From the NCBI GenBank assembly GCA_016839705.1, contig JAEOTR010000033.1, positions 1-46,606 on the forward strand: DNA of 46,606 bases, read 5' to 3'. A program made the translations under genes and the position numbers. This DNA comes from Promethearchaeota archaeon (GTDB lineage: Archaea > Asgardarchaeota > Lokiarchaeia > Sigyniarchaeales > SOKP01). Below the pieces are notes generated by a model. The model had not been told where the DNA came from. It saw only the letters and a program-made list of their open reading frames with translations, and searched no databases. This document shows, piece after piece, positions 8,203 through 19,138 of this stretch; the stretch's first letter is position 1, and each line of letters opens with the position of its first letter.

Positions 8203-9501
8203 TTACATTTTTATAGGGAGAGGAAATTCATTATCATTTTCAATAACATTCTGATCTGGATCATTAAATTTACTAGTGATTTTTATTACATATTCTCCTG
8301 CTTCAATAGGTTTAAGGCTTATTTCCCATCTGATATTTTCATTTGATCTTAGTGAGTATATCTGTTTCGTAAGAGTACCTCTCATTACTTTAATTTCTTC
8401 TGGAAATTCTATTTCAATATTAAGATTTAGAGCTTCACCTTCACTTTTATTCTCAATTAACACTTCAAGTGGAAAAGTTTGATCAATCAGAGGAGGTCTT
8501 AGATTCTTTATGGAAATATCTAATGACGGTAGAGGAGATATTAATTTTGGTTTTAAAAGTTGTAGAATTTCATATGTAAAAATTAAATTCCCATTTATTT
8601 CAAAGTCTAATGAAATTGGTCCAATAACGGAATTTTCCATTTGAAAGTGTGGTTTAATTAAGAAGTTGATTAGGTCTCTTTGATTTAATTCGAGTTTAAT
8701 TGGAAGTTCTGGTCTCTCTTGAGTAGTTAGGTTATCAGAAAGTGAAATCCCAATTTTATTTATTTTCAATTCTTTTATAGAATAATTATAAAACTCTTGC
8801 TTCGAAATATCTAATAAAGGATTAGAATCAATTTTCAAGGATAAATTCATCACTTCATTAGTAGTATACACATCTTTATCTAGACTTAACTTAATAATTA
8901 ACGATGTGTAGGTTTTTGCAATTACTAATGCTTGTTTTGCAAGGAGAATTTCAGCTTCTCGGAACTTACAGTTGTTAAAATCATTTTTAATTCTATCAAC
9001 ATATTTTTCATGTTTTTCTGTAGTAACCATAATCAAATTTGTGATAAGGTGAATTAATGGATTTTCTTTGAAATATTTATCGTCAACAAAATTTTTAATT
9101 TTTTTTACTAATTTCAAACCTTCTTCTTTCTCCCCATTAACAAAAAGACACAAAAATGATAAACATGAAAATAGTATAAAGTTTTGATTTCGATCGGAAG
9201 CACTTCTTAAATTAGGAATATAATTTACTGCTTCTCGAAAGAATTGATTTGCTTCCAAGATCTCGTTATTAAATAAGGATGCATTACCTGCCTTTCTGAG
9301 AAAATCTAAACCTATAACGTATTTATCTTCTTTCATAGAACACTTGGCAGCATCAAAATAGCAGTCTCTAGCAAGTTCAAAATTGCCTAACTTTGAATAT
9401 AAATCTCCAACAAAATCAAAAATCTTTGCAGCTCTTTTAAATTGCATTGCTTTATATAACTTCTCGGCTTTCCTGTATTGTTTTTCGATATCTTTTACCA
9501 T
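8203..9501 (-). CDS. Hypothetical protein: TPR/alpha-SNAP-like helical N-terminus plus C-terminal Ig-like beta-sandwich domains
   Basis: N-terminus KAEKLY...AAKIF..VGDLYSKLGNFELARDCYFDAAKC is TPR/SNAP-like. C-terminus LEVLIENKSEGEALNLNIEIEFP...WEISLKPIEAGEY is CARDB/Ig-like. Confidence 0.7.
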   Translation of the reverse strand: MVKDIEKQYRKAEKLYKAMQFKRAAKIFDFVGDLYSKLGNFELARDCYFDAAKCSMKEDKYVIGLDFLRKAGNASLFNNEILEANQFFREAVNYIPNLRSASDRNQNFILFSCLSFLCLFVNGEKEEGLKLVKKIKNFVDDKYFKENPLIHLITNLIMVTTEKHEKYVDRIKNDFNNCKFREAEILLAKQALVIAKTYTSLIIKLSLDKDVYTTNEVMNLSLKIDSNPLLDISKQEFYNYSIKELKINKIGISLSDNLTTQERPELPIKLELNQRDLINFLIKPHFQMENSVIGPISLDFEINGNLIFTYEILQLLKPKLISPLPSLDISIKNLRPPLIDQTFPLEVLIENKSEGEALNLNIEIEFPEEIKVMRGTLTKQIYSLRSNENIRWEISLKPIEAGEYVIKITSKFNDPDQNVIENDNEFPLPIKM

Positions 9502-9622
9502 TTTTAACTCACCAAGATAAATACTATTATTTTTAGTAATTAATTTTTAAATTAAAAATTAAGTAAAGAATTAGATTATGTGTCAGAAATAAATGAAAAA
9601 AAAATATAATTTAGTTTTTAAA

Positions 9623-10282
9623 TTATAAAGCAAGTAACATTAGAAGCCATCCAATCATAAGGATTATTCCGCCAAAACCTAACACAGGATACCCTGCTGC
9701 AAATGGGGAGACAAATGTATAGATTACAAATGCAATTATTAAAACACTCCACCAACCAAAGGGTATTTTAATATCTACTAAATCTAGTACAAGTATCAAA
9801 AGAATAATTGCTAAAATTAGACCAAAAATTGCATTTACAAGGATAATTTCAGCACCAGCAGTAAATCCTATGAAAATTGCGACACAATCCCAGAGAGCGA
9901 AAGCAATGCCGAATAAAAGCATAACTTTCGAACCATTCATATCTTTCTTACCCCTAACTAAATCTACTATTACCGCTAACAACACTAAAATAGCTGTAAA
10001 ATAATTTCCCCCTGCTAAATAATTGAAGATGATTAAAACAATACCGATGATAAGCATTAACCACCACCAGTACGTTAGTTTCACCGGGCCTAAACTAACA
10101 AGGTCTAATGATATAAAAATTAAGAATACAAATACTAGACCAATAATCCCGTAAAGAATCATCATAGCATCAATTGCAGCAACATAGAAATAACCCATCG
10201 CTTCAGCGAATATAAATAGCATCGCTATAAAAAGGGTTATTTTTGGAGCGGTAATTTCTTTACTCATACTTTCTTCACTCAT
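9623..10282 (-). CDS. Polytopic membrane protein of unknown function with internal duplication
   Basis: About 8 hydrophobic segments. Repeated motif 'GI.GL...L...LDLV...K..(Y/F).WW..LII' in both halves. Confidence 0.8.
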   Translation of the reverse strand: MSEESMSKEITAPKITLFIAMLFIFAEAMGYFYVAAIDAMMILYGIIGLVFVFLIFISLDLVSLGPVKLTYWWWLMLIIGIVLIIFNYLAGGNYFTAILVLLAVIVDLVRGKKDMNGSKVMLLFGIAFALWDCVAIFIGFTAGAEIILVNAIFGLILAIILLILVLDLVDIKIPFGWWSVLIIAFVIYTFVSPFAAGYPVLGFGGIILMIGWLLMLLAL

Positions 10283-10456
10283 ATCAGTTCACTACTTTTT
10301 TCTATTTTGTTATACTTGAATTGTTAATTCAATTCAATATTTACTTAGATAGCTAACTATATAAAATTTTAGAAATCTTTTAATATATTATTAATAGGTT
10401 TTAACTCTAAAGAGAAAAGACAATAAAAATTAGATTTTGTAATAAAATATTCATTG

Positions 10457-10523
10457 CCGAAGCCATTACACTATGGTTTGTCATCTTGCGACTAGTATTT
10501 TCTCACAAGATTCATCCCTTCGG
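10457..10523 (-). promoter_or_regulatory. SECIS element (eukaryote-like/lokiarchaeal type) in the 3' UTR of hdrA-mvhD
   Basis: Minus-strand RNA: CCGAAG GG AUGA AUCUUGUGA GAAAAUACUAG UCGCAAGAU GA CAAA CCAU AGUGUA AUGG CUUCGG. It has an AUGA/GA tandem sheared G.A core, a 9-bp upper helix, an AAAA-containing apical loop and a closing helix CCGAAG/CUUCGG. It starts 2 nt after the mvhD stop. Confidence 0.88.
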
Positions 10524-10524
10524 T

Positions 10525-10995
10525 TTATTTTTTCTTCTTATCCTCTGAGGCTCTTTTTTCTTGCTCAGATTTTAAATTTTCTTTAATAAGATTACTCCCT
10601 AAATCTGCGATTTCTTCTGATATTCTTATTGCTTCATTTTGGAACTTCTGACCTTCAGCAGCACTACAATTAAAAATCTGGACTCTTTCTGGTGAAATTC
10701 CAGTCGTTTTTAAAATCTCCTTGACATATTGTACGTTTCTTTCGGCAACTAAATTACCTGTTTCATAATCGCATTCTCCACGATATCAAGCCCCAAGAAC
10801 AACTCCATCAGCACCTTTTCCTATTGCTCGCATTATTAAAGAGGGGGTTACTCGTCCTGTACAGTTAATCCTCACTGGTCTAAATGTTGCAGGATATTGT
10901 GCTCGAATTGTGCCTGCCATATCTCCTGCACCGTATCCTCATTTCCAGCAAAGGAAAGCTAATATCTTTATATTCTCTACTGATTTGTTAGCCAT
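10525..10995 (-). CDS. mvhD: Hydrogenase iron-sulfur subunit MvhD/VhuD, selenoprotein with 2 Sec (156 aa); absent from the ORF track
   Basis: Manual translation: MANKSVENIKILAFLCWK-U-GYGAGDMAGTIRAQYP..RINCTGRV...GADGVVLGA-U-YRGECDYETGNL...ISPERV..FNCSAAEGQKF. TGA at 10939-10941 and 10786-10788 fall at conserved Cys positions. SD-like AAGGGGG upstream; stop TAA at 10525-10527. Confidence 0.95.
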
Positions 10996-11008
10996 TTTTT
11001 ATCCCCCT

Positions 11009-12991
11009 TTATAATTCTTCCAAGATTGCATCTATTTGTTTTTCATATTGAGGTTCTCTATAATACCTTAACGTGATTGCTTCTGATGGGCAATTTGCTA
11101 AACATGATCCACATCCCCTGCAAAGGATTTCATTCACTTCAGCACCATCATCCTGTACACTTATCGCATTATACGGACAATTCAGTTCACACAACCCACA
11201 TTTTGCACATTTTTCTTTGTCTTCAACAGCCGCCCGAATTAAGAGTATTCGATATTTATCTTTACCCATTAACCTGGCTAATGAAGATGCTGCAGCTCTT
11301 CCTTGAGCAATCGACTCTACAATTGATTTTGGTCCTTGACTTGCTCCAGCTAATGTGATTCCGGGAATTTTTGTATCGATCGGATTCAATCTAGCATGAA
11401 ATTCCTTAAAAAAGCCATCTTGACTCAATTCAAGTTTTAGGATTTTTTGGATGCTTTCAACACCTTTCGCCGGCACCATCGAAGCAGAGAGAACAACCAT
11501 ATCATATTCCAATTCCTTTAATCCACTTGAGCTCAATGTATTCTGCATAACAATCTTTAGGTTCTGAGTATCTGGATCTTCTTTTATCCTACTAATATTC
11601 GTTCTTATATATTTTATACCTTCCTTTCTAGAAGCTGTAAAATATTCTTCATAATCTTTTCCCGCAGCTCGCATATCCATGTAAGCAACCGTAATATCCG
11701 CATTAGGTGAGTGTTGTTTTATTAATTTTGAGTTTTTGATTGAAATCATGCAACATACTCCTGAGCTACAATAGGTATTCATTGTTAAATCTCTCGATCC
11801 TACACACTGGATAAATAGAATATTTTTTGGTACTTTACCATCAGAGGGTCGAACAAGGTGCCCGAGGGTAGGTCCATTTGGTGCAAGAATTCTTTCAAGT
11901 TTTAATTGTGTAATTACATTAGGATATTTATTGTATCCTAAGTATCCAGTAGGAGGTTCAAATTCATCCCAACCAGTTGCAACAACAATGGACCCTACTT
12001 TCAATTTTAGGATTTCATCTTTTTGATCAAAATCGATTGCATCTACTTCACATGCCGTCTTACAGAGCTCACATTTTATGCATCTATCCATGTCAATTTG
12101 AGCAAAAGCAGGAACAGCTTGTGCAAATGACGAATAAATAGCTTTTCTTGAATCTAATCCTTCATTGAATTCATTGTAACCATAAGCCGGGCATACTTCC
12201 CAACAGGCTCCACAACCGTTACAATCTTTATTTACATATCTCGCTTTTTTTCGAATGGTTACCGTAAAATTTCCTACAAATCCTTGTACATCTTCTACTT
12301 GACTATAAGTATATAAGTTAAGCCCTGGTGTTCTAGCTGATTGAAGCATAACGGGTCCTAATATTCATATACTGCAATCATCTGTAGGGAAAGTACGATC
12401 TAATTTTGCCATTTTGCCTCCTATTGTAGGTTGTGTCTCTACTAGATGTACTTCGAATCCTTCTTCTGCTAAGTCGATCCCTGCTGACAAACCTGCAACT
12501 CCTCCACCGATAATCAGAGCTTTTTTTGTTATATCAACTTCTTTGATTTGTATTATCTCTAACACCGCGGCTCTTGCTACGGCTGAACGAATGGCATCTT
12601 CAGCAACTCTTCGAGCACCCTCCATATCTTGTTTATGTACAAAACTTGAATGCTCACGTATATTAGCAAACTCTAAATATGATGCATCGATATTCATTGA
12701 TTCAAGTACGCTTTTAAAGACAGGTTCATGAGTTTTAGGAGTACACGAACCAACTACAAGTCTGTTCGCATTACTTTCAATCATCTTTTCTTTTATAAAT
12801 TCCGCTCCAGGTTCTGTTCATAAACTGATATAATCTAATGCCTCGACTACATTTGGAATAGTTTTTGAGAATTCTGCCAATTTTTTAGTGGCGATGATTT
12901 CTGCTATGTTTAAACCTCACTGACAAATAAATACAGCGATTCTTGGAACTTTTTCGTCGTCTTGAATAGTTTTTTCTTTAGTTTCTACCAT
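11009..12991 (-). CDS. hdrA: Heterodisulfide reductase subunit A, selenoprotein with 3 Sec (660 aa); split into fragments in the ORF track
   Basis: One frame from ATG 12991: RIAVFICQ-U-GLNI (TGA 12917-12919; cf. CHCG.NI), YISL-U-TEPG (12818-12820; cf. YMCSDPG), TFPTDDCSI-U-ILGP (12365-12367; cf. CSxCIL). Also FAD motif IIGGGVAG, QCVGSRD and two CxxCxxCxxxCP ferredoxin domains. Confidence 0.96.
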
Positions 12992-13070
12992 TGCATATAC
13001 TACCTTCCTAACTTTATAATTTCCTCCAATACATTTTATAGTTTTAATCCACTAAATGTTTAGTTCTAAT

Positions 13071-13102
13071 TAAATAAATTTAAAACTAAATAAATTTAAA
13101 AC
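13071..13102. repeat. Perfect 16-bp tandem direct repeat in the divergent promoter region upstream of hdrA
   Basis: TAAATAAATTTAAAAC at 13071-13086 and again at 13087-13102. Confidence 0.8.
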
Positions 13103-13195
13103 TTATATCTTTTATAATATAATCAGTAAAAAATCATTAGAATTATAAATTTCATTACTAACAAATAAATCTCCTTATTTTACTGAGTGATCTTC

Positions 13196-13618
13196 ATGTT
13201 TTTTCAGTTTCCAAGTATAGAAGAGATATTTCCCTTTATTATTGCAACAATAATAATCATAAGTGGCATACTATTATTTAAAATTGGTTTAGTGGTTACT
13301 AAAGCAGAATCCAAAACAAATTTTAAATGGGTTGCGGTAAGTTTTCTTCTTCAATATGGTGTAACCCTTTTTATTAGCGCTCCTATGTTGCTAGATATGG
13401 TATTGACTTTTATGACGGGTCCCACTTATAATTATCGGGGACCAGACCCAGGAATAATAGCAATGGTTGTTATTTTTTCAGCTTTTATTGTTGTAAATCT
13501 TATTAATATGATTCATAAACCGGGTATAAAACGATCAATTGTCATAACCTTGTTGATTTTAGGACCAATCATCGGGAGTAATTATCTAATCTTTAGTAGT
13601 TTAGGAAATGTAATGTAA
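13196..13618 (+). CDS. Hypothetical membrane protein (about 4 TM)
   Basis: Four hydrophobic segments. ATG at 13196; alternative GTG at 13187. Confidence 0.75.
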   Translation: MFFQFPSIEEIFPFIIATIIIISGILLFKIGLVVTKAESKTNFKWVAVSFLLQYGVTLFISAPMLLDMVLTFMTGPTYNYRGPDPGIIAMVVIFSAFIVVNLINMIHKPGIKRSIVITLLILGPIIGSNYLIFSSLGNVM

Positions 13619-13632
13619 AAGCAGAATTCATA

Positions 13633-14553
13633 TCATATACCAATTTGATTATTGATTTTTTTATTCATTTCAAGAATCACATCTTTAGCTGCCTTGCTAA
13701 AATCATATTGTGAGTAATTTTGATTCTTACTATAAGCATAAATAATTCCTCTCGAAGAATTTACTATGCCACCTAATCCGTTTTCATAAAAACCAGGTTT
13801 AATATCTTTTGCTTGGGCACCTTGTGCTCCGTATCCTGGAATTAAAAAGAAAGAATTTTTAACGATTTCTCTTATCATTTTAAGTTCATTCGGGTAAGTG
13901 GCACCAACTACAACCCCTAAATTAGTAAAATTCGAGAATTTTTGGAGATCAGATGCCCATTCTTTTACCAATTCAGCCATTAGGATATAATTTCTTTTTA
14001 AGATATGATTTGTAACTTTATACTCAGAAATCTCTTCAGAAATATCTGGGATCTTAGAACTGAACAAATTTTGAAAATCAGAACTGCTTGGATTTGATGT
14101 TTTAACCAGGACAAAGACTCCTTTTTCCTTATAATTCAGGAATGGCTTAATACCATCAATTCCGAGATAAGCATTTACTGTACAAGCATCTGAGCCATAG
14201 TTTTTAAACATTGAATGCGCATATGCTTCAGATGTCGATCCAATATCATTTCTCTTTGCATCTAAAATTACTAAAAGATCTTTTTTGTGAGCATACTTTA
14301 TTGTTTCTGTTAAAGCATTTAGAGCCTCATATTTCTCATAAAATGCGATTTGAGGCTTAATAACAGGAATCAAATCGAAAACTTCTTCAATAAGAGTTTT
14401 GTTAAATTCCAAAATTATTCTATCAGGGTGATCTAATTCTTCAATAAGATACTGGGGAATTTCTCCCTCTCTATCCATTCTAGGGTCTAAACCCATGGAT
14501 ATAACGCTTTGTTTTTCTTTTATTAATTGAATTAGTCGTTCAATAAAATTCAT
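13633..14553 (-). CDS. pyrF: Orotidine-5'-phosphate decarboxylase (type 2)
   Basis: Motifs GLDP, IKPQIAFYE, LDAKRNDIGST, VKTSNP, VVGAT, LIPGYGAQG, NSSRGII. Confidence 0.96.
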   Translation of the reverse strand: MNFIERLIQLIKEKQSVISMGLDPRMDREGEIPQYLIEELDHPDRIILEFNKTLIEEVFDLIPVIKPQIAFYEKYEALNALTETIKYAHKKDLLVILDAKRNDIGSTSEAYAHSMFKNYGSDACTVNAYLGIDGIKPFLNYKEKGVFVLVKTSNPSSSDFQNLFSSKIPDISEEISEYKVTNHILKRNYILMAELVKEWASDLQKFSNFTNLGVVVGATYPNELKMIREIVKNSFFLIPGYGAQGAQAKDIKPGFYENGLGGIVNSSRGIIYAYSKNQNYSQYDFSKAAKDVILEMNKKINNQIGI

Positions 14554-17713: not shown

Positions 17714-19138
17714 ATGGCGATATTAAGACCTAGGATTAACGTATTGGATGAAGAACACAAAGAACAAATATTAGAGGAAGCAAAAATTATATTAGAGACC
17801 CAAGGTATTTTCATTGAAAATCAAGAAGCGGTTGAATTATTTGATCAAAAAGGTTTAAATCATGAAGGTTTGCGGTATTTTTTTCCCCCAGATTTGATCA
17901 ATAAGTGCTTAGCTTCAGTCCCTTATGAAATCACTCTTTTCGATAGAGAGGGAAATGAATGTATTACATTAAAAGACAATGACGTTCATTTTGATCCTGG
18001 TTCCGCAGCCATTTTTATTCTTGATGAAAATACCAGAGAAATAAGAGAGGGCTTGTCAAAAGATTTTATCCGGTTCTCCAAAATCGTTGAACAATTAAAA
18101 TTTATTGAAGCACAAAGTACAGCTCTAATTTATCAAGATGTACCGAAAGAAGCTCAAGATTGGCATCGCCTATATTTAGCACTATCTAATTGTTATAAAC
18201 CGATAGTTACAGGAACATTTCGTAAAGAGAGTTTTTCTATTATGAAAGAAATTTTGCTAGCATGTAGAACATCAGAAGAGGATTTAGCTCGAAAACCACT
18301 GGCAATATTTGATGCTTGTCCTAGCCCTCCATTAAAATGGTCTGATCTTACAACACAATCACTTATTGATGCTGCAAAATCCATGATACCATCTGAATTT
18401 GTATCTATGCCATTAGCAGGGGCGAGTGCTCCAATTACTTTAATTGGCTCAATTACCCAACACTGTGCCGAGTGTCTTGCGGGAATTGTTATTGCTCAAT
18501 TAGCAAAAGAGGGTGCTCCATTAATTTGGGGAGGCTCTCCTGCGGTGTTTGATATGAAACATGGGACAACTCCAATGGGTGCAATTGAAACAATGATGAT
18601 TAACTTAGGAGATGTTGAGATGGGAAAATTTTTAAATCTCCCTACTCATGCCTATATGAGTTTAAGCGATTCTAAAATACCAGATGCTCAAGCGGGGTTT
18701 GAAGCAGGAATGGGAGCATTACTTGCAGGACTTGCGGGAGTTAATATGGTTTCTGGACCAGGGATGCTTGATTTTGAGTCTACTCAAAGTGTTGAAAAAC
18801 TAATAATTGATAATGAAATAGTAGGAATGGTAAAAAGATTAATTCGCGGTATTGAAGATTTTGGTACTCCTTTTGCTTCAGAAATATTGAAAGATTATGA
18901 AGATAAAGAAGAATTATTATCCCATCCATCAACTCTTAAATATTTTAGAAAGGAATTATTTCTTCCTAGTCAAATTATAGATAGAATGACAAGAGATTCA
19001 TGGAAGGAAAATGGTTCTAAATCAACAAGAAAAAGAGCATTAGATGTTGCTGAAAAGTTGTTACAAAAGCCTTCAATTAAACCTATTGATGGAAGCTTAG
19101 CGACAGAATTGGATAAGATTGCTGAAACGGCATTATAA
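17714..19138 (+). CDS. Trimethylamine methyltransferase (MttB) superfamily protein, non-pyrrolysine
   Basis: Motifs SPPLKW, MPLAGASAPITL.G, FDMKHG, SDSKIPDAQAGFE, GMLD, LIIDNEI. No in-frame TAG; TTA (Leu, 18662-18664) sits at the Pyl-equivalent position before SDSK. Confidence 0.93.
   Translation: MAILRPRINVLDEEHKEQILEEAKIILETQGIFIENQEAVELFDQKGLNHEGLRYFFPPDLINKCLASVPYEITLFDREGNECITLKDNDVHFDPGSAAIFILDENTREIREGLSKDFIRFSKIVEQLKFIEAQSTALIYQDVPKEAQDWHRLYLALSNCYKPIVTGTFRKESFSIMKEILLACRTSEEDLARKPLAIFDACPSPPLKWSDLTTQSLIDAAKSMIPSEFVSMPLAGASAPITLIGSITQHCAECLAGIVIAQLAKEGAPLIWGGSPAVFDMKHGTTPMGAIETMMINLGDVEMGKFLNLPTHAYMSLSDSKIPDAQAGFEAGMGALLAGLAGVNMVSGPGMLDFESTQSVEKLIIDNEIVGMVKRLIRGIEDFGTPFASEILKDYEDKEELLSHPSTLKYFRKELFLPSQIIDRMTRDSWKENGSKSTRKRALDVAEKLLQKPSIKPIDGSLATELDKIAETAL

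What the first reader, a model, noticed from the sequence alone, without database searches (positions are those of the whole stretch)
10457..12991. One 3' SECIS apparently serves five UGA codons across two cistrons
hdrA ends at 11009 and mvhD starts at 10995, a 13-nt gap filled by an SD, so there is no room for an hdrA-specific 3' UTR SECIS. The 5' region is unstructured AT-rich DNA, and I found no convincing AUGA/GA hairpin within mvhD. The only visible SECIS follows mvhD, about 2.4 kb from the first UGA. Inference: a eukaryote-type SECIS acts at long range on a prokaryote-type polycistronic mRNA, skipping a whole cistron. Both genes end in TAA, which avoids terminal readthrough.
Basis: partly seen in the sequence, partly recalled or inferred. 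Interest (0 to 1): 0.8.

Follow-up and report, generated by a model that had tools for sequence, protein, structure and literature searches.

The report
Shared SECIS of Asgard hdrA-mvhD pair
Two adjacent selenoprotein genes of a Loki-type Asgard archaeon (hdrA and mvhD, five in-frame UGA codons) have only one selenocysteine-insertion hairpin, after the second gene; the sequence confirms this, but the arrangement was already published in 2016 and is still untested at the bench.

Summary
On the minus strand, hdrA (12991-11009, UGA at codons 25, 58, 209) and mvhD (10995-10525, UGA at codons 19, 70) are 13 nt apart. One eukaryote-like SECIS hairpin starts 10 nt after the mvhD stop (AUGA 10515-10512, 9-bp stem, 11-nt loop, GA 10482-10481).

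I found no second SECIS in hdrA, mvhD or the 5' region. Two covariance models run without filters, two descriptor scans, Rfam, local folding and synonymous-site profiles all came back negative. The same layout, one SECIS after mvhD, occurs in all 3 Sec-type pairs of this genome and in 30 loci from related genomes. The two Cys-type pairs scanned (contigs C18, C1) have no SECIS.

The interpretation (one SECIS serves both cistrons on a polycistronic mRNA, up to 2.4 kb away) is the best reading. It is exactly what Mariotti et al. 2016 (PMC4989117) proposed for Lokiarchaeota HdrA-VhuD, and Huang et al. 2024 (PMC11227280) extended it to Asgard genomes. Co-transcription and function remain unproven.

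Verdict: a real feature, already known, low novelty. One addition: the SECIS is a canonical K-turn set in a three-way junction, conserved across gene families.

The parts
11009..12991 (-). hdrA (heterodisulfide reductase subunit A-like), 660 aa, TAA stop. Sec codons (UGA) at 12919-12917, 12820-12818 and 12367-12365.
   Evidence: ORF under TGA=U. Pfam Fer4, Pyr_redox_2 and NAD_binding_8. Sec columns align with Cys in orthologues (codons 25, 58) and in the genome's own Cys paralogues (all three).
10996..11008 (-). 13-nt intercistronic spacer with a Shine-Dalgarno-like GGGGG run. Too short to hold a SECIS.
   Evidence: Sequence. The gap is 7-21 nt, or an 11- or 23-nt overlap, in 31 further loci with both genes.
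10525..10995 (-). mvhD/vhuD/frhD (hydrogenase delta subunit, FlpD family), 156 aa, TAA stop. Sec codons at 10941-10939 and 10788-10786.
   Evidence: Pfam PF02662 E=5.8e-41. Both UGA columns are invariant Sec in 33 loci and Cys in the C18 paralogue.
10481..10515 (-). SECIS core of the lokiSECIS type: AUGA (10515-10512), helix II 10511-10503 paired with 10491-10483, 11-nt A-rich loop 10502-10492 ending in AG, GA (10482-10481).
   Evidence: Fold. R2 57 bits, E=4e-11. Helix II has compensatory changes in 9 of 9 pairs; 96.6% of cells are paired against about 40% in slid controls.
10457..10523 (-). Full SECIS structure, a three-way junction: lower helix 10523-10518 with 10462-10457, the K-turn hairpin (the core above), and a small 3' hairpin 10476-10473 with 10466-10463.
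   Evidence: MFE fold. R1 81.6 bits. The junction is predicted in 26 of 32 related elements against 16% with shuffled flanks. Helices 1 and 3 carry compensatory changes.
10405..10447 (-). U-rich tract just after the SECIS (T5 run at 10429). Candidate archaeal transcription stop. This is an inference.
   Evidence: T-run list, sequence. Not tested.
12992..13186 (-). AT-rich upstream region of hdrA with TATA-like words. It holds no SECIS. A weak all-A/U AUGA..GA hairpin at 13103-13142 is judged to be chance.
   Evidence: R2 10.2 bits, E=5. Descriptor hit with a mismatch. Fold z=-0.24. No counterpart in relatives.

Best explanation
hdrA and mvhD form a tightly coupled two-gene unit of a Lokiarchaeia-type Asgard archaeon, transcribed as one mRNA that ends shortly after the SECIS. 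The single eukaryote-like SECIS lies in the 3' untranslated region after mvhD. It is a K-turn hairpin with an A-rich loop, set in a three-way junction. It recruits the Sec-specific elongation factor carrying Sec-tRNA(Sec), directly or through a K-turn-binding protein, and delivers it to ribosomes paused at any of the five UGA codons. Three of these are in the upstream cistron (1.85-2.4 kb away) and two in the downstream cistron (273-426 nt away).

Shown here: gene identities, the UGA/Cys correspondence, the uniqueness and conservation of the SECIS, and the presence of tRNA-Sec and SepSecS in the genome.

Inferred: co-transcription, action of the SECIS on hdrA, and the identity of the binding factor.
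For: - One SECIS only: R1 81.6 bits and R2 57 bits at 10450-10527, and nothing else at E<=10 inside 10525-12991 with filters off. Descriptor scans for eukaryote-like and euryarchaeal-type SECIS were negative.
- Same layout in 3 of 3 Sec-type pairs of this genome and in 30 of 30 loci from related genomes. This includes seven loci held out of model training, which scored 34-54 bits.
- Negative control: the genome's own Cys-type hdrA-mvhD pairs on contigs C18 and C1 have no SECIS. The C18 hdrA ends in TGA.
- The five UGAs sit at Cys positions. hdrA is under purifying selection: 85-92% amino-acid identity in the nearest orthologues, while about 46% of pairwise comparisons at same-residue codons differ.
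- No hidden RNA element: the synonymous-site profile is flat along both genes except at hdrA codons 1-15. Segments downstream of the UGAs fold no better than shuffles, apart from one case that shows no covariation.
- hdrA stops are TAA or TAG in 32 of 32 loci with hdrA, although about 14% of long ORFs in this genome end in TGA.
- Sec machinery is present: tRNA-Sec, SepSecS E=6.6e-114, and Sec-containing selD with its own SECIS.
- The literature reaches the same inference (PMC4989117; PMC11227280). In Methanococcus a 3' SECIS works with no strict distance limit (PMC9622424).
Against: - There are no transcript data, so co-transcription rests on the 13-nt gap and the SD-like spacer.
- One T6 run inside hdrA (11413) could cause partial termination.
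- No SBP2 homologue is known in Archaea, and this genome shows only the two usual L7Ae-family genes, so the SECIS reader is unknown.
- A lokiarchaeal SECIS did not work in M. maripaludis (PMC11881835), so no lokiSECIS has yet been shown to be functional anywhere.
- A structurally unrelated recoding signal in hdrA would escape models trained on known SECIS types.
Confidence: 0.8

Rival explanations
1. hdrA has its own recoding signal that is not SECIS-like, such as a local element near each UGA (like bacterial SECIS or eukaryotic SRE) or a structure in the coding region. The 3' SECIS would then serve mvhD only.
For: The 70 nt starting at the first mvhD UGA fold somewhat better than shuffles (z=-2.06). 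Models trained on known SECIS types cannot see an unrelated signal.
Against: - The segments downstream of the three hdrA UGAs have z between -0.8 and +0.5.
- The mvhD hairpin comes from conserved Gly-Tyr and Tyr-Pro codons. Its wobble positions vary without covariation across 32 loci.
- Synonymous variation is flat along hdrA (0.33-0.63, mean 0.46), with no window of constraint except codons 1-15.
- Rfam bacterial SECIS models give nothing.
- Mariotti's RNAz scan of the coding sequences found nothing either.
Confidence: 0.07
2. The two genes are transcribed separately, with an internal promoter for mvhD and termination after hdrA. The hdrA UGAs would then be decoded inefficiently or in trans, or hdrA would be a decaying gene.
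For: A TATA-like word overlaps the hdrA stop at 11015, and there is a T6 run inside hdrA. No transcript data exist.
Against: - The TATA-like word lies only about 16-20 nt before the mvhD ATG, too close for a leaderless start. It is not conserved, since many relatives have TAG stops there.
- The gap is 13 nt with an SD-like run, typical of internal cistrons.
- hdrA is intact and conserved, with UGA exactly at Cys columns in more than 30 genomes. That excludes a pseudogene.
- Fused hdrA-mvhD ORFs exist in the same genome on contigs C1 and C32, which shows how closely the two are linked.
Confidence: 0.08
3. The hairpin is not a SECIS but a transcript-end or stability element, and UGA decoding in this lineage does not depend on it.
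For: No lokiSECIS has been shown to function, and one failed in M. maripaludis.
Against: - In this genome the motif follows the five selenoprotein genes or gene pairs other than the C3 pair.
- The C3 pair carries a bulged variant that model R2 finds.
- The motif is absent after the Cys-type hdrA-mvhD pairs.
- It has the AUGA/GA K-turn core and the A-rich loop of eukaryotic SECIS, with strong covariation.
Confidence: 0.05

Closest known systems
Shared lokiSECIS of HdrA-VhuD gene pairs in Lokiarchaeota (Mariotti et al. 2016, Mol Biol Evol, PMC4989117), extended to Asgard genomes as hdrA-frhD (Huang et al. 2024, ISME J, PMC11227280)
   Same: Same gene order, same very short gap and multi-Sec HdrA. 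A single SECIS lies only after the second gene, with a 9-bp stem, 11-nt loop, AUGA...GA core, A-rich loop start and a G at the loop end. hdrA never ends in UGA. The range is about 2 kb.
   Different: Nothing essential; this is another instance in another genome. Added here: filter-free covariance-model scans, a synonymous-site profile, and the three-way-junction and C-stem description.
Eukaryotic SECIS (Rfam RF00031), read by SBP2
   Same: 3' UTR location, AUGA/GA K-turn core, unpaired adenines in the apical loop, action over long distances, and one element able to serve several UGAs.
   Different: - The upper helix is shorter.
- Rfam models give no hit at E<=10.
- The context is a polycistronic prokaryotic mRNA.
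- No SBP2 is known in Archaea.
- Here the K-turn has a standard 3-nt bulge with a short C-stem, and a third helix in place of a simple internal loop.
Euryarchaeal (Methanococcus/Methanopyrus) SECIS with a GAA_A internal loop
   Same: Located in the untranslated region and distance-tolerant (PMC9622424). The same selenoproteins (HdrA, VhuD) and the same hdrA-vhuD synteny.
   Different: There is no GAA_A motif here. According to Mariotti et al., methanococcal hdrA keeps its own SECIS. A lokiSECIS is not functional in M. maripaludis (PMC11881835).
K-junction (a K-turn at a three-way junction; Wang et al. 2014, cited in PMC11227280)
   Same: A G.A/A.G K-turn whose canonical side opens into a three-helix junction.
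   Different: The resemblance rests on predicted secondary structure only, with no 3D evidence.

Membership tests
lokiSECIS (Mariotti 2016) | AUGA immediately 5' of the main stem and GA (or AA) immediately 3' of it | tested here: met
   AUGA 10515-10512, GA 10482-10481
lokiSECIS (Mariotti 2016) | 9-bp stem and 11-nt apical loop | tested here: met
   MFE fold. Covariation in 9 of 9 pairs over 29 sequences.
lokiSECIS (Mariotti 2016) | Adenine-rich first five loop bases; G at the last loop position, usually preceded by A | tested here: met
   The loop is GAAAAUACUAG. Three A columns and the final G of the loop are invariant in alignment A4.
lokiSECIS (Mariotti 2016) | Lies just downstream of a selenoprotein coding sequence | tested here: met
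   The AUGA starts 10 nt after the mvhD TAA.
lokiSECIS (Mariotti 2016) | Directs Sec insertion at UGA | not testable with these tools
   No experiment exists for any lokiSECIS. A heterologous test in M. maripaludis was negative.
Shared HdrA-VhuD SECIS arrangement | hdrA directly upstream of vhuD/mvhD on the same strand, with a very short gap or an overlap | tested here: met
   13-nt gap. Gaps of 7-21 nt, or overlaps, in 31 further loci with both genes.
Shared HdrA-VhuD SECIS arrangement | In-frame UGAs in both genes at positions that are Cys in homologues | tested here: met
Shared HdrA-VhuD SECIS arrangement | Only one SECIS, downstream of the second gene | tested here: met
Shared HdrA-VhuD SECIS arrangement | The hdrA stop codon is not UGA | tested here: met
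   TAA here. TAA or TAG in all 32 loci where hdrA is present.
Shared HdrA-VhuD SECIS arrangement | Both genes on one mRNA | not testable with these tools
   Inferred from the spacing only.
Eukaryotic SECIS (Rfam SECIS_1) | Match to the curated covariance model | tested here: not met
   No SECIS family hit at E<=10 in 9500-14000.
Euryarchaeal SECIS | GAA_A asymmetric internal loop between two G/C-clamped helices | tested here: not met
   The descriptor scan found none in 10400-13250.
Canonical K-turn | C-stem, 3-nt bulge, then tandem G.A/A.G pairs opening the NC helix | tested here: met
   With a 3-nt bulge (N-A-U), the -1 pair is standard in 32 of 32 elements and the -2 pair in 29 of 32, with several pair types. 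Other registers reach at most 20 of 32. In the window itself only the -1 pair (G-C) forms.

The most novel reading that the evidence does not exclude
The Asgard SECIS is larger and more orderly than the published hairpin. It would be a canonical K-turn (2-bp C-stem, 3-nt bulge, G.A/A.G) seated in a three-way junction with a conserved small 3' hairpin and a closing helix. This whole K-junction, perhaps read by ordinary L7Ae or by EFSec itself, would be the functional unit that allows action at 2.4 kb and across a cistron boundary. If so, the minimal hairpin would be insufficient. Whether that explains the failed heterologous test is pure speculation, because I did not see which construct was used.
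Probability: 0.4. Interest if true: 0.5.

Novelty: already known. Interest (0 to 1): 0.2.

Why it matters
A single 3' element reprogramming stop codons in two separate cistrons, over more than 2 kb, has been called unparalleled (Mariotti et al. 2016). It bears on how the eukaryotic SECIS/SBP2 system arose from an archaeal one. This window adds one more clean instance with tighter negative evidence against a second element, but the idea itself is published. The open question is experimental: no lokiSECIS has yet been shown to work, and the factor that reads it is unknown.

Tried and rejected
- **Rfam.** Gathering and E<=10 scans found no SECIS family near the genes, only chance hits (DapZ, snoRNAs). 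Rfam has no Asgard SECIS model.
- **Model R1.** It was built from the closest orthologues and proved too specific. It scored the paralogous C3-type SECIS at only 10-18 bits, so its silence inside hdrA was not enough. I replaced it with the general core model R2.
- **First MAFFT alignment.** The alignment of extended elements put the two paralogue types out of register and was discarded.
- **Hairpin at the first mvhD UGA** (z=-2.06). Rejected as a recoding element because its wobble positions vary without compensation.
- **All-A/U AUGA..GA hairpin at 13103-13142.** 10.2 bits, E=5, one mismatch, no counterpart in relatives. Judged to be chance.
- **Bacterial promoter and terminator scan**. Counts equal the shuffles, and the consensus does not apply to archaea.
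- **Phylum-wide mvhD search**. I had hoped to find Sec-hdrA paired with Cys-mvhD. Only the top 150 of more than 2,200 matches are listed, all with 2 TGA except one partial match with 1 TGA, so it did not answer the question.
- **L7Ae-domain search** for an SBP2-like extra paralogue. It found only two small genes, consistent with L7Ae and L30e, so there is no candidate.

Full report
**What is there.** The window is contig C15 of a 3.36-Mb, 31% G+C assembly. Its nearest relatives in the public genome collection are titled Promethearchaeota, the Loki-type Asgard archaea. On the minus strand, an ORF from 12991 to 11009 reads through three TGA codons (codons 25, 58, 209) and ends in TAA. It carries the ferredoxin-type 4Fe-4S and FAD/NAD-binding domains of HdrA. 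Thirteen bases later (10996-11008, purine-rich with a GGGGG run) a second ORF, 10995-10525, reads through two TGA codons (19 and 70) and ends in TAA. It matches Pfam FlpD/MvhD at E=5.8e-41.

Ten bases after that stop lies AUGA (10515-10512), then a perfect 9-bp helix, an 11-nt loop GAAAAUACUAG, and GA (10482-10481). The first UGA of hdrA is 2404 nt from the AUGA; the others are 2305, 1852, 426 and 273 nt away.

**Are the UGAs selenocysteine codons?** All five align with Cys in the genome's own Cys-type paralogues on contigs C18 and C1. Across eleven close orthologues, hdrA columns 25 and 58 alternate between Sec and Cys, while column 209 and both mvhD columns are always Sec. The nearest hdrA orthologues are 85-92% identical in protein, while about 46% of pairwise comparisons at codons encoding the same residue differ. 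The gene is therefore under purifying selection and is not decaying. The genome has a tRNA-Sec, SepSecS (E=6.6e-114) and a Sec-containing selD.

**Is there only one SECIS?** Rfam has no model that recognises this element, so I built my own.

- A pattern scan of the genome for AUGA, 9 bp, 11 nt, 9 bp, GA/AA gave clean hits after selD, a Prx-like gene, a Sec-Sec gene, and two hdrA-mvhD pairs.
- A search of one genome per species returned 30 related mvhD loci. All but one (a short contig, L019) also hold hdrA just upstream, with a gap of 7-17 nt or an overlap of 11 or 23 nt. In those loci hdrA always ends in TAA or TAG.
- Model R1 (77 positions, close orthologues) scores the window's element at 81.6 bits, with no other hit above 12.3 bits in the whole window, filters off. 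R1 barely sees the paralogous SECIS type (10-18 bits), so I did not rely on it.
- Model R2 (45 positions, 29 elements from four gene families and three mvhD paralogue types) gives 57 bits at 10476-10520. Nothing lies inside 10525-12991 at E<=10. The only neighbour is 13103-13142 at 10.2 bits, E=5.
- On 37 loci, R2 finds one strong hit for each Sec-type hdrA-mvhD pair, always just after mvhD, and one after each of the three other selenoprotein genes scanned. The mvhD hits include seven loci not used for training (34-54 bits). The two Cys-type pairs of this genome give none.
- A filter-free run over 12 loci (96 kb) gives the same picture.
- Descriptor scans with relaxed stem and loop lengths, and for the euryarchaeal GAA_A type, find nothing further.

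**Could a different kind of signal hide in hdrA?**

- Synonymous-site variation across eleven orthologues is flat along both genes (windows 0.33-0.63, mean 0.46). The only dip is at hdrA codons 1-15, as expected near a start codon.
- The 70-nt segments beginning at each UGA fold like shuffled sequence. The exception is the first mvhD UGA (z=-2.06).
- That hairpin is formed by conserved Gly-Tyr and Tyr-Pro codons. Its wobble positions change freely without compensation in 32 loci. It is a by-product of the protein sequence.
- The 5' region is unstructured (z=-0.24).

**Transcription.** This part is inference. The 13-nt spacer with an SD-like run is what an internal cistron looks like. A U-rich tract follows the SECIS (T5 at 10429). 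hdrA contains one T6 run (11413). A TATA-like word overlaps the hdrA stop, but it lies too close to the mvhD ATG for a leaderless start and is not conserved. The bacterial consensus scan is uninformative. The same genome also holds Cys-type hdrA-mvhD fusions in one ORF (contigs C1 and C32). That fits a history in which the pair behaves as a single unit with a single 3' signal.

**Comparison with what is known.** This is the arrangement published by Mariotti et al. 2016. They describe a lokiSECIS with AUGA, a 9-bp stem, an 11-nt loop starting with adenines and ending in G, and GA. They report that in all tandem HdrA-VhuD pairs only one lokiSECIS is found, downstream of VhuD. [quoted passage not shown] Huang et al. 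2024 repeat this for the Sec-using Asgard genomes they surveyed (227 organisms; PMC11227280).

No experiment has tested it. [quoted passage not shown] In Methanococcus a 3' SECIS tolerates varied distances (PMC9622424), which makes long-range action plausible. This genome has only two L7Ae-domain genes, so it offers no SBP2-like candidate.

**What I can add.** The element is larger than the hairpin. In the window, a lower helix (10523-10518 with 10462-10457) encloses both the K-turn hairpin and a small 3' hairpin (10476-10473 with 10466-10463). The same three-way junction is predicted in 26 of 32 elements from selD and three mvhD paralogue types, with unrelated helix sequences, against 16% when the flanks are shuffled. 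Four more elements show it with extra pairs. The Prx-like and Sec-Sec gene elements did not show it in this test.

Assuming a 3-nt bulge (N-A-U) before the G.A/A.G pairs, the two bases before the bulge pair with the two bases after GA. This holds in 32 of 32 elements for the first pair and 29 of 32 for the second, with G-C, U-A, C-G and A-U all represented. Other registers reach at most 20 of 32. That is the geometry of a standard K-turn. The papers I read model this region as an internal loop plus lower stem.

**Verdict.** The finding is already known, so interest is low, apart from the structural add-on.

Noticed in passing
window 10457-10523 (-); also L001-L005 and L008-L035: The SECIS sits in a three-way junction: a closing helix, the K-turn hairpin and a small 3' hairpin. 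It has a canonical K-turn register (2-bp C-stem, 3-nt bulge). The junction recurs in selD and the three mvhD paralogue types with covarying helices. The K-turn register holds in all 32 elements, including the Prx-like and Sec-Sec gene elements. The two Asgard SECIS papers I read do not describe it.
   Followed up: partly
window 18662-18761 (+): Rfam PYLIS_3 (the pyrrolysine insertion sequence of mttB) matches at 50.2 bits, E=1.8e-7. The same contig therefore carries both Sec-recoded and probably Pyl-recoded genes.
   Followed up: no
own genome contig C73 86871-87266 (+) = L005:2372-2767: An ORF of about 132 aa with two adjacent in-frame TGA codons, followed by a lokiSECIS (R2 45 bits). It has no Pfam family. 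The 36 homologous places found in 32 of 41 genomes searched (this genome included) all hold 2 TGA. Other agents of this scan have already followed up this Sec-Sec selenoprotein (e1-5576997, e1-5590285).
   Followed up: partly
own genome contigs C1 (55599-53569), C32 (10951-7466, 84219-87248) and C18 (57351-55495): Cys-type paralogues. hdrA and mvhD appear fused in one ORF on C1 and C32. On C18 the Cys-type hdrA ends in TGA and has no SECIS downstream, in contrast to the Sec-type pairs.
   Followed up: partly
L008, L010, L013, L015, L023 (mvhD 3' ends): In these relatives the first in-frame stop of mvhD appears to be a UGA. In L008 it lies directly 5' of the AUGA core. This fits a minimum-distance rule for SECIS action, as Mariotti et al. 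proposed.
   Followed up: partly
L016 5400-5480 (+): A weak SECIS-like hit about 0.9 kb downstream of mvhD (R1 19.5 bits, E=0.086; R2 13.7 bits). It could be a degenerate or divergent SECIS of a neighbouring gene.
   Followed up: no
L008-L037, hdrA stop codons: TAG is the commoner hdrA stop among relatives (about two thirds), although only about 17% of long ORFs in this genome end in TAG. This is in a lineage that probably also decodes TAG as pyrrolysine. I have no explanation.
   Followed up: no
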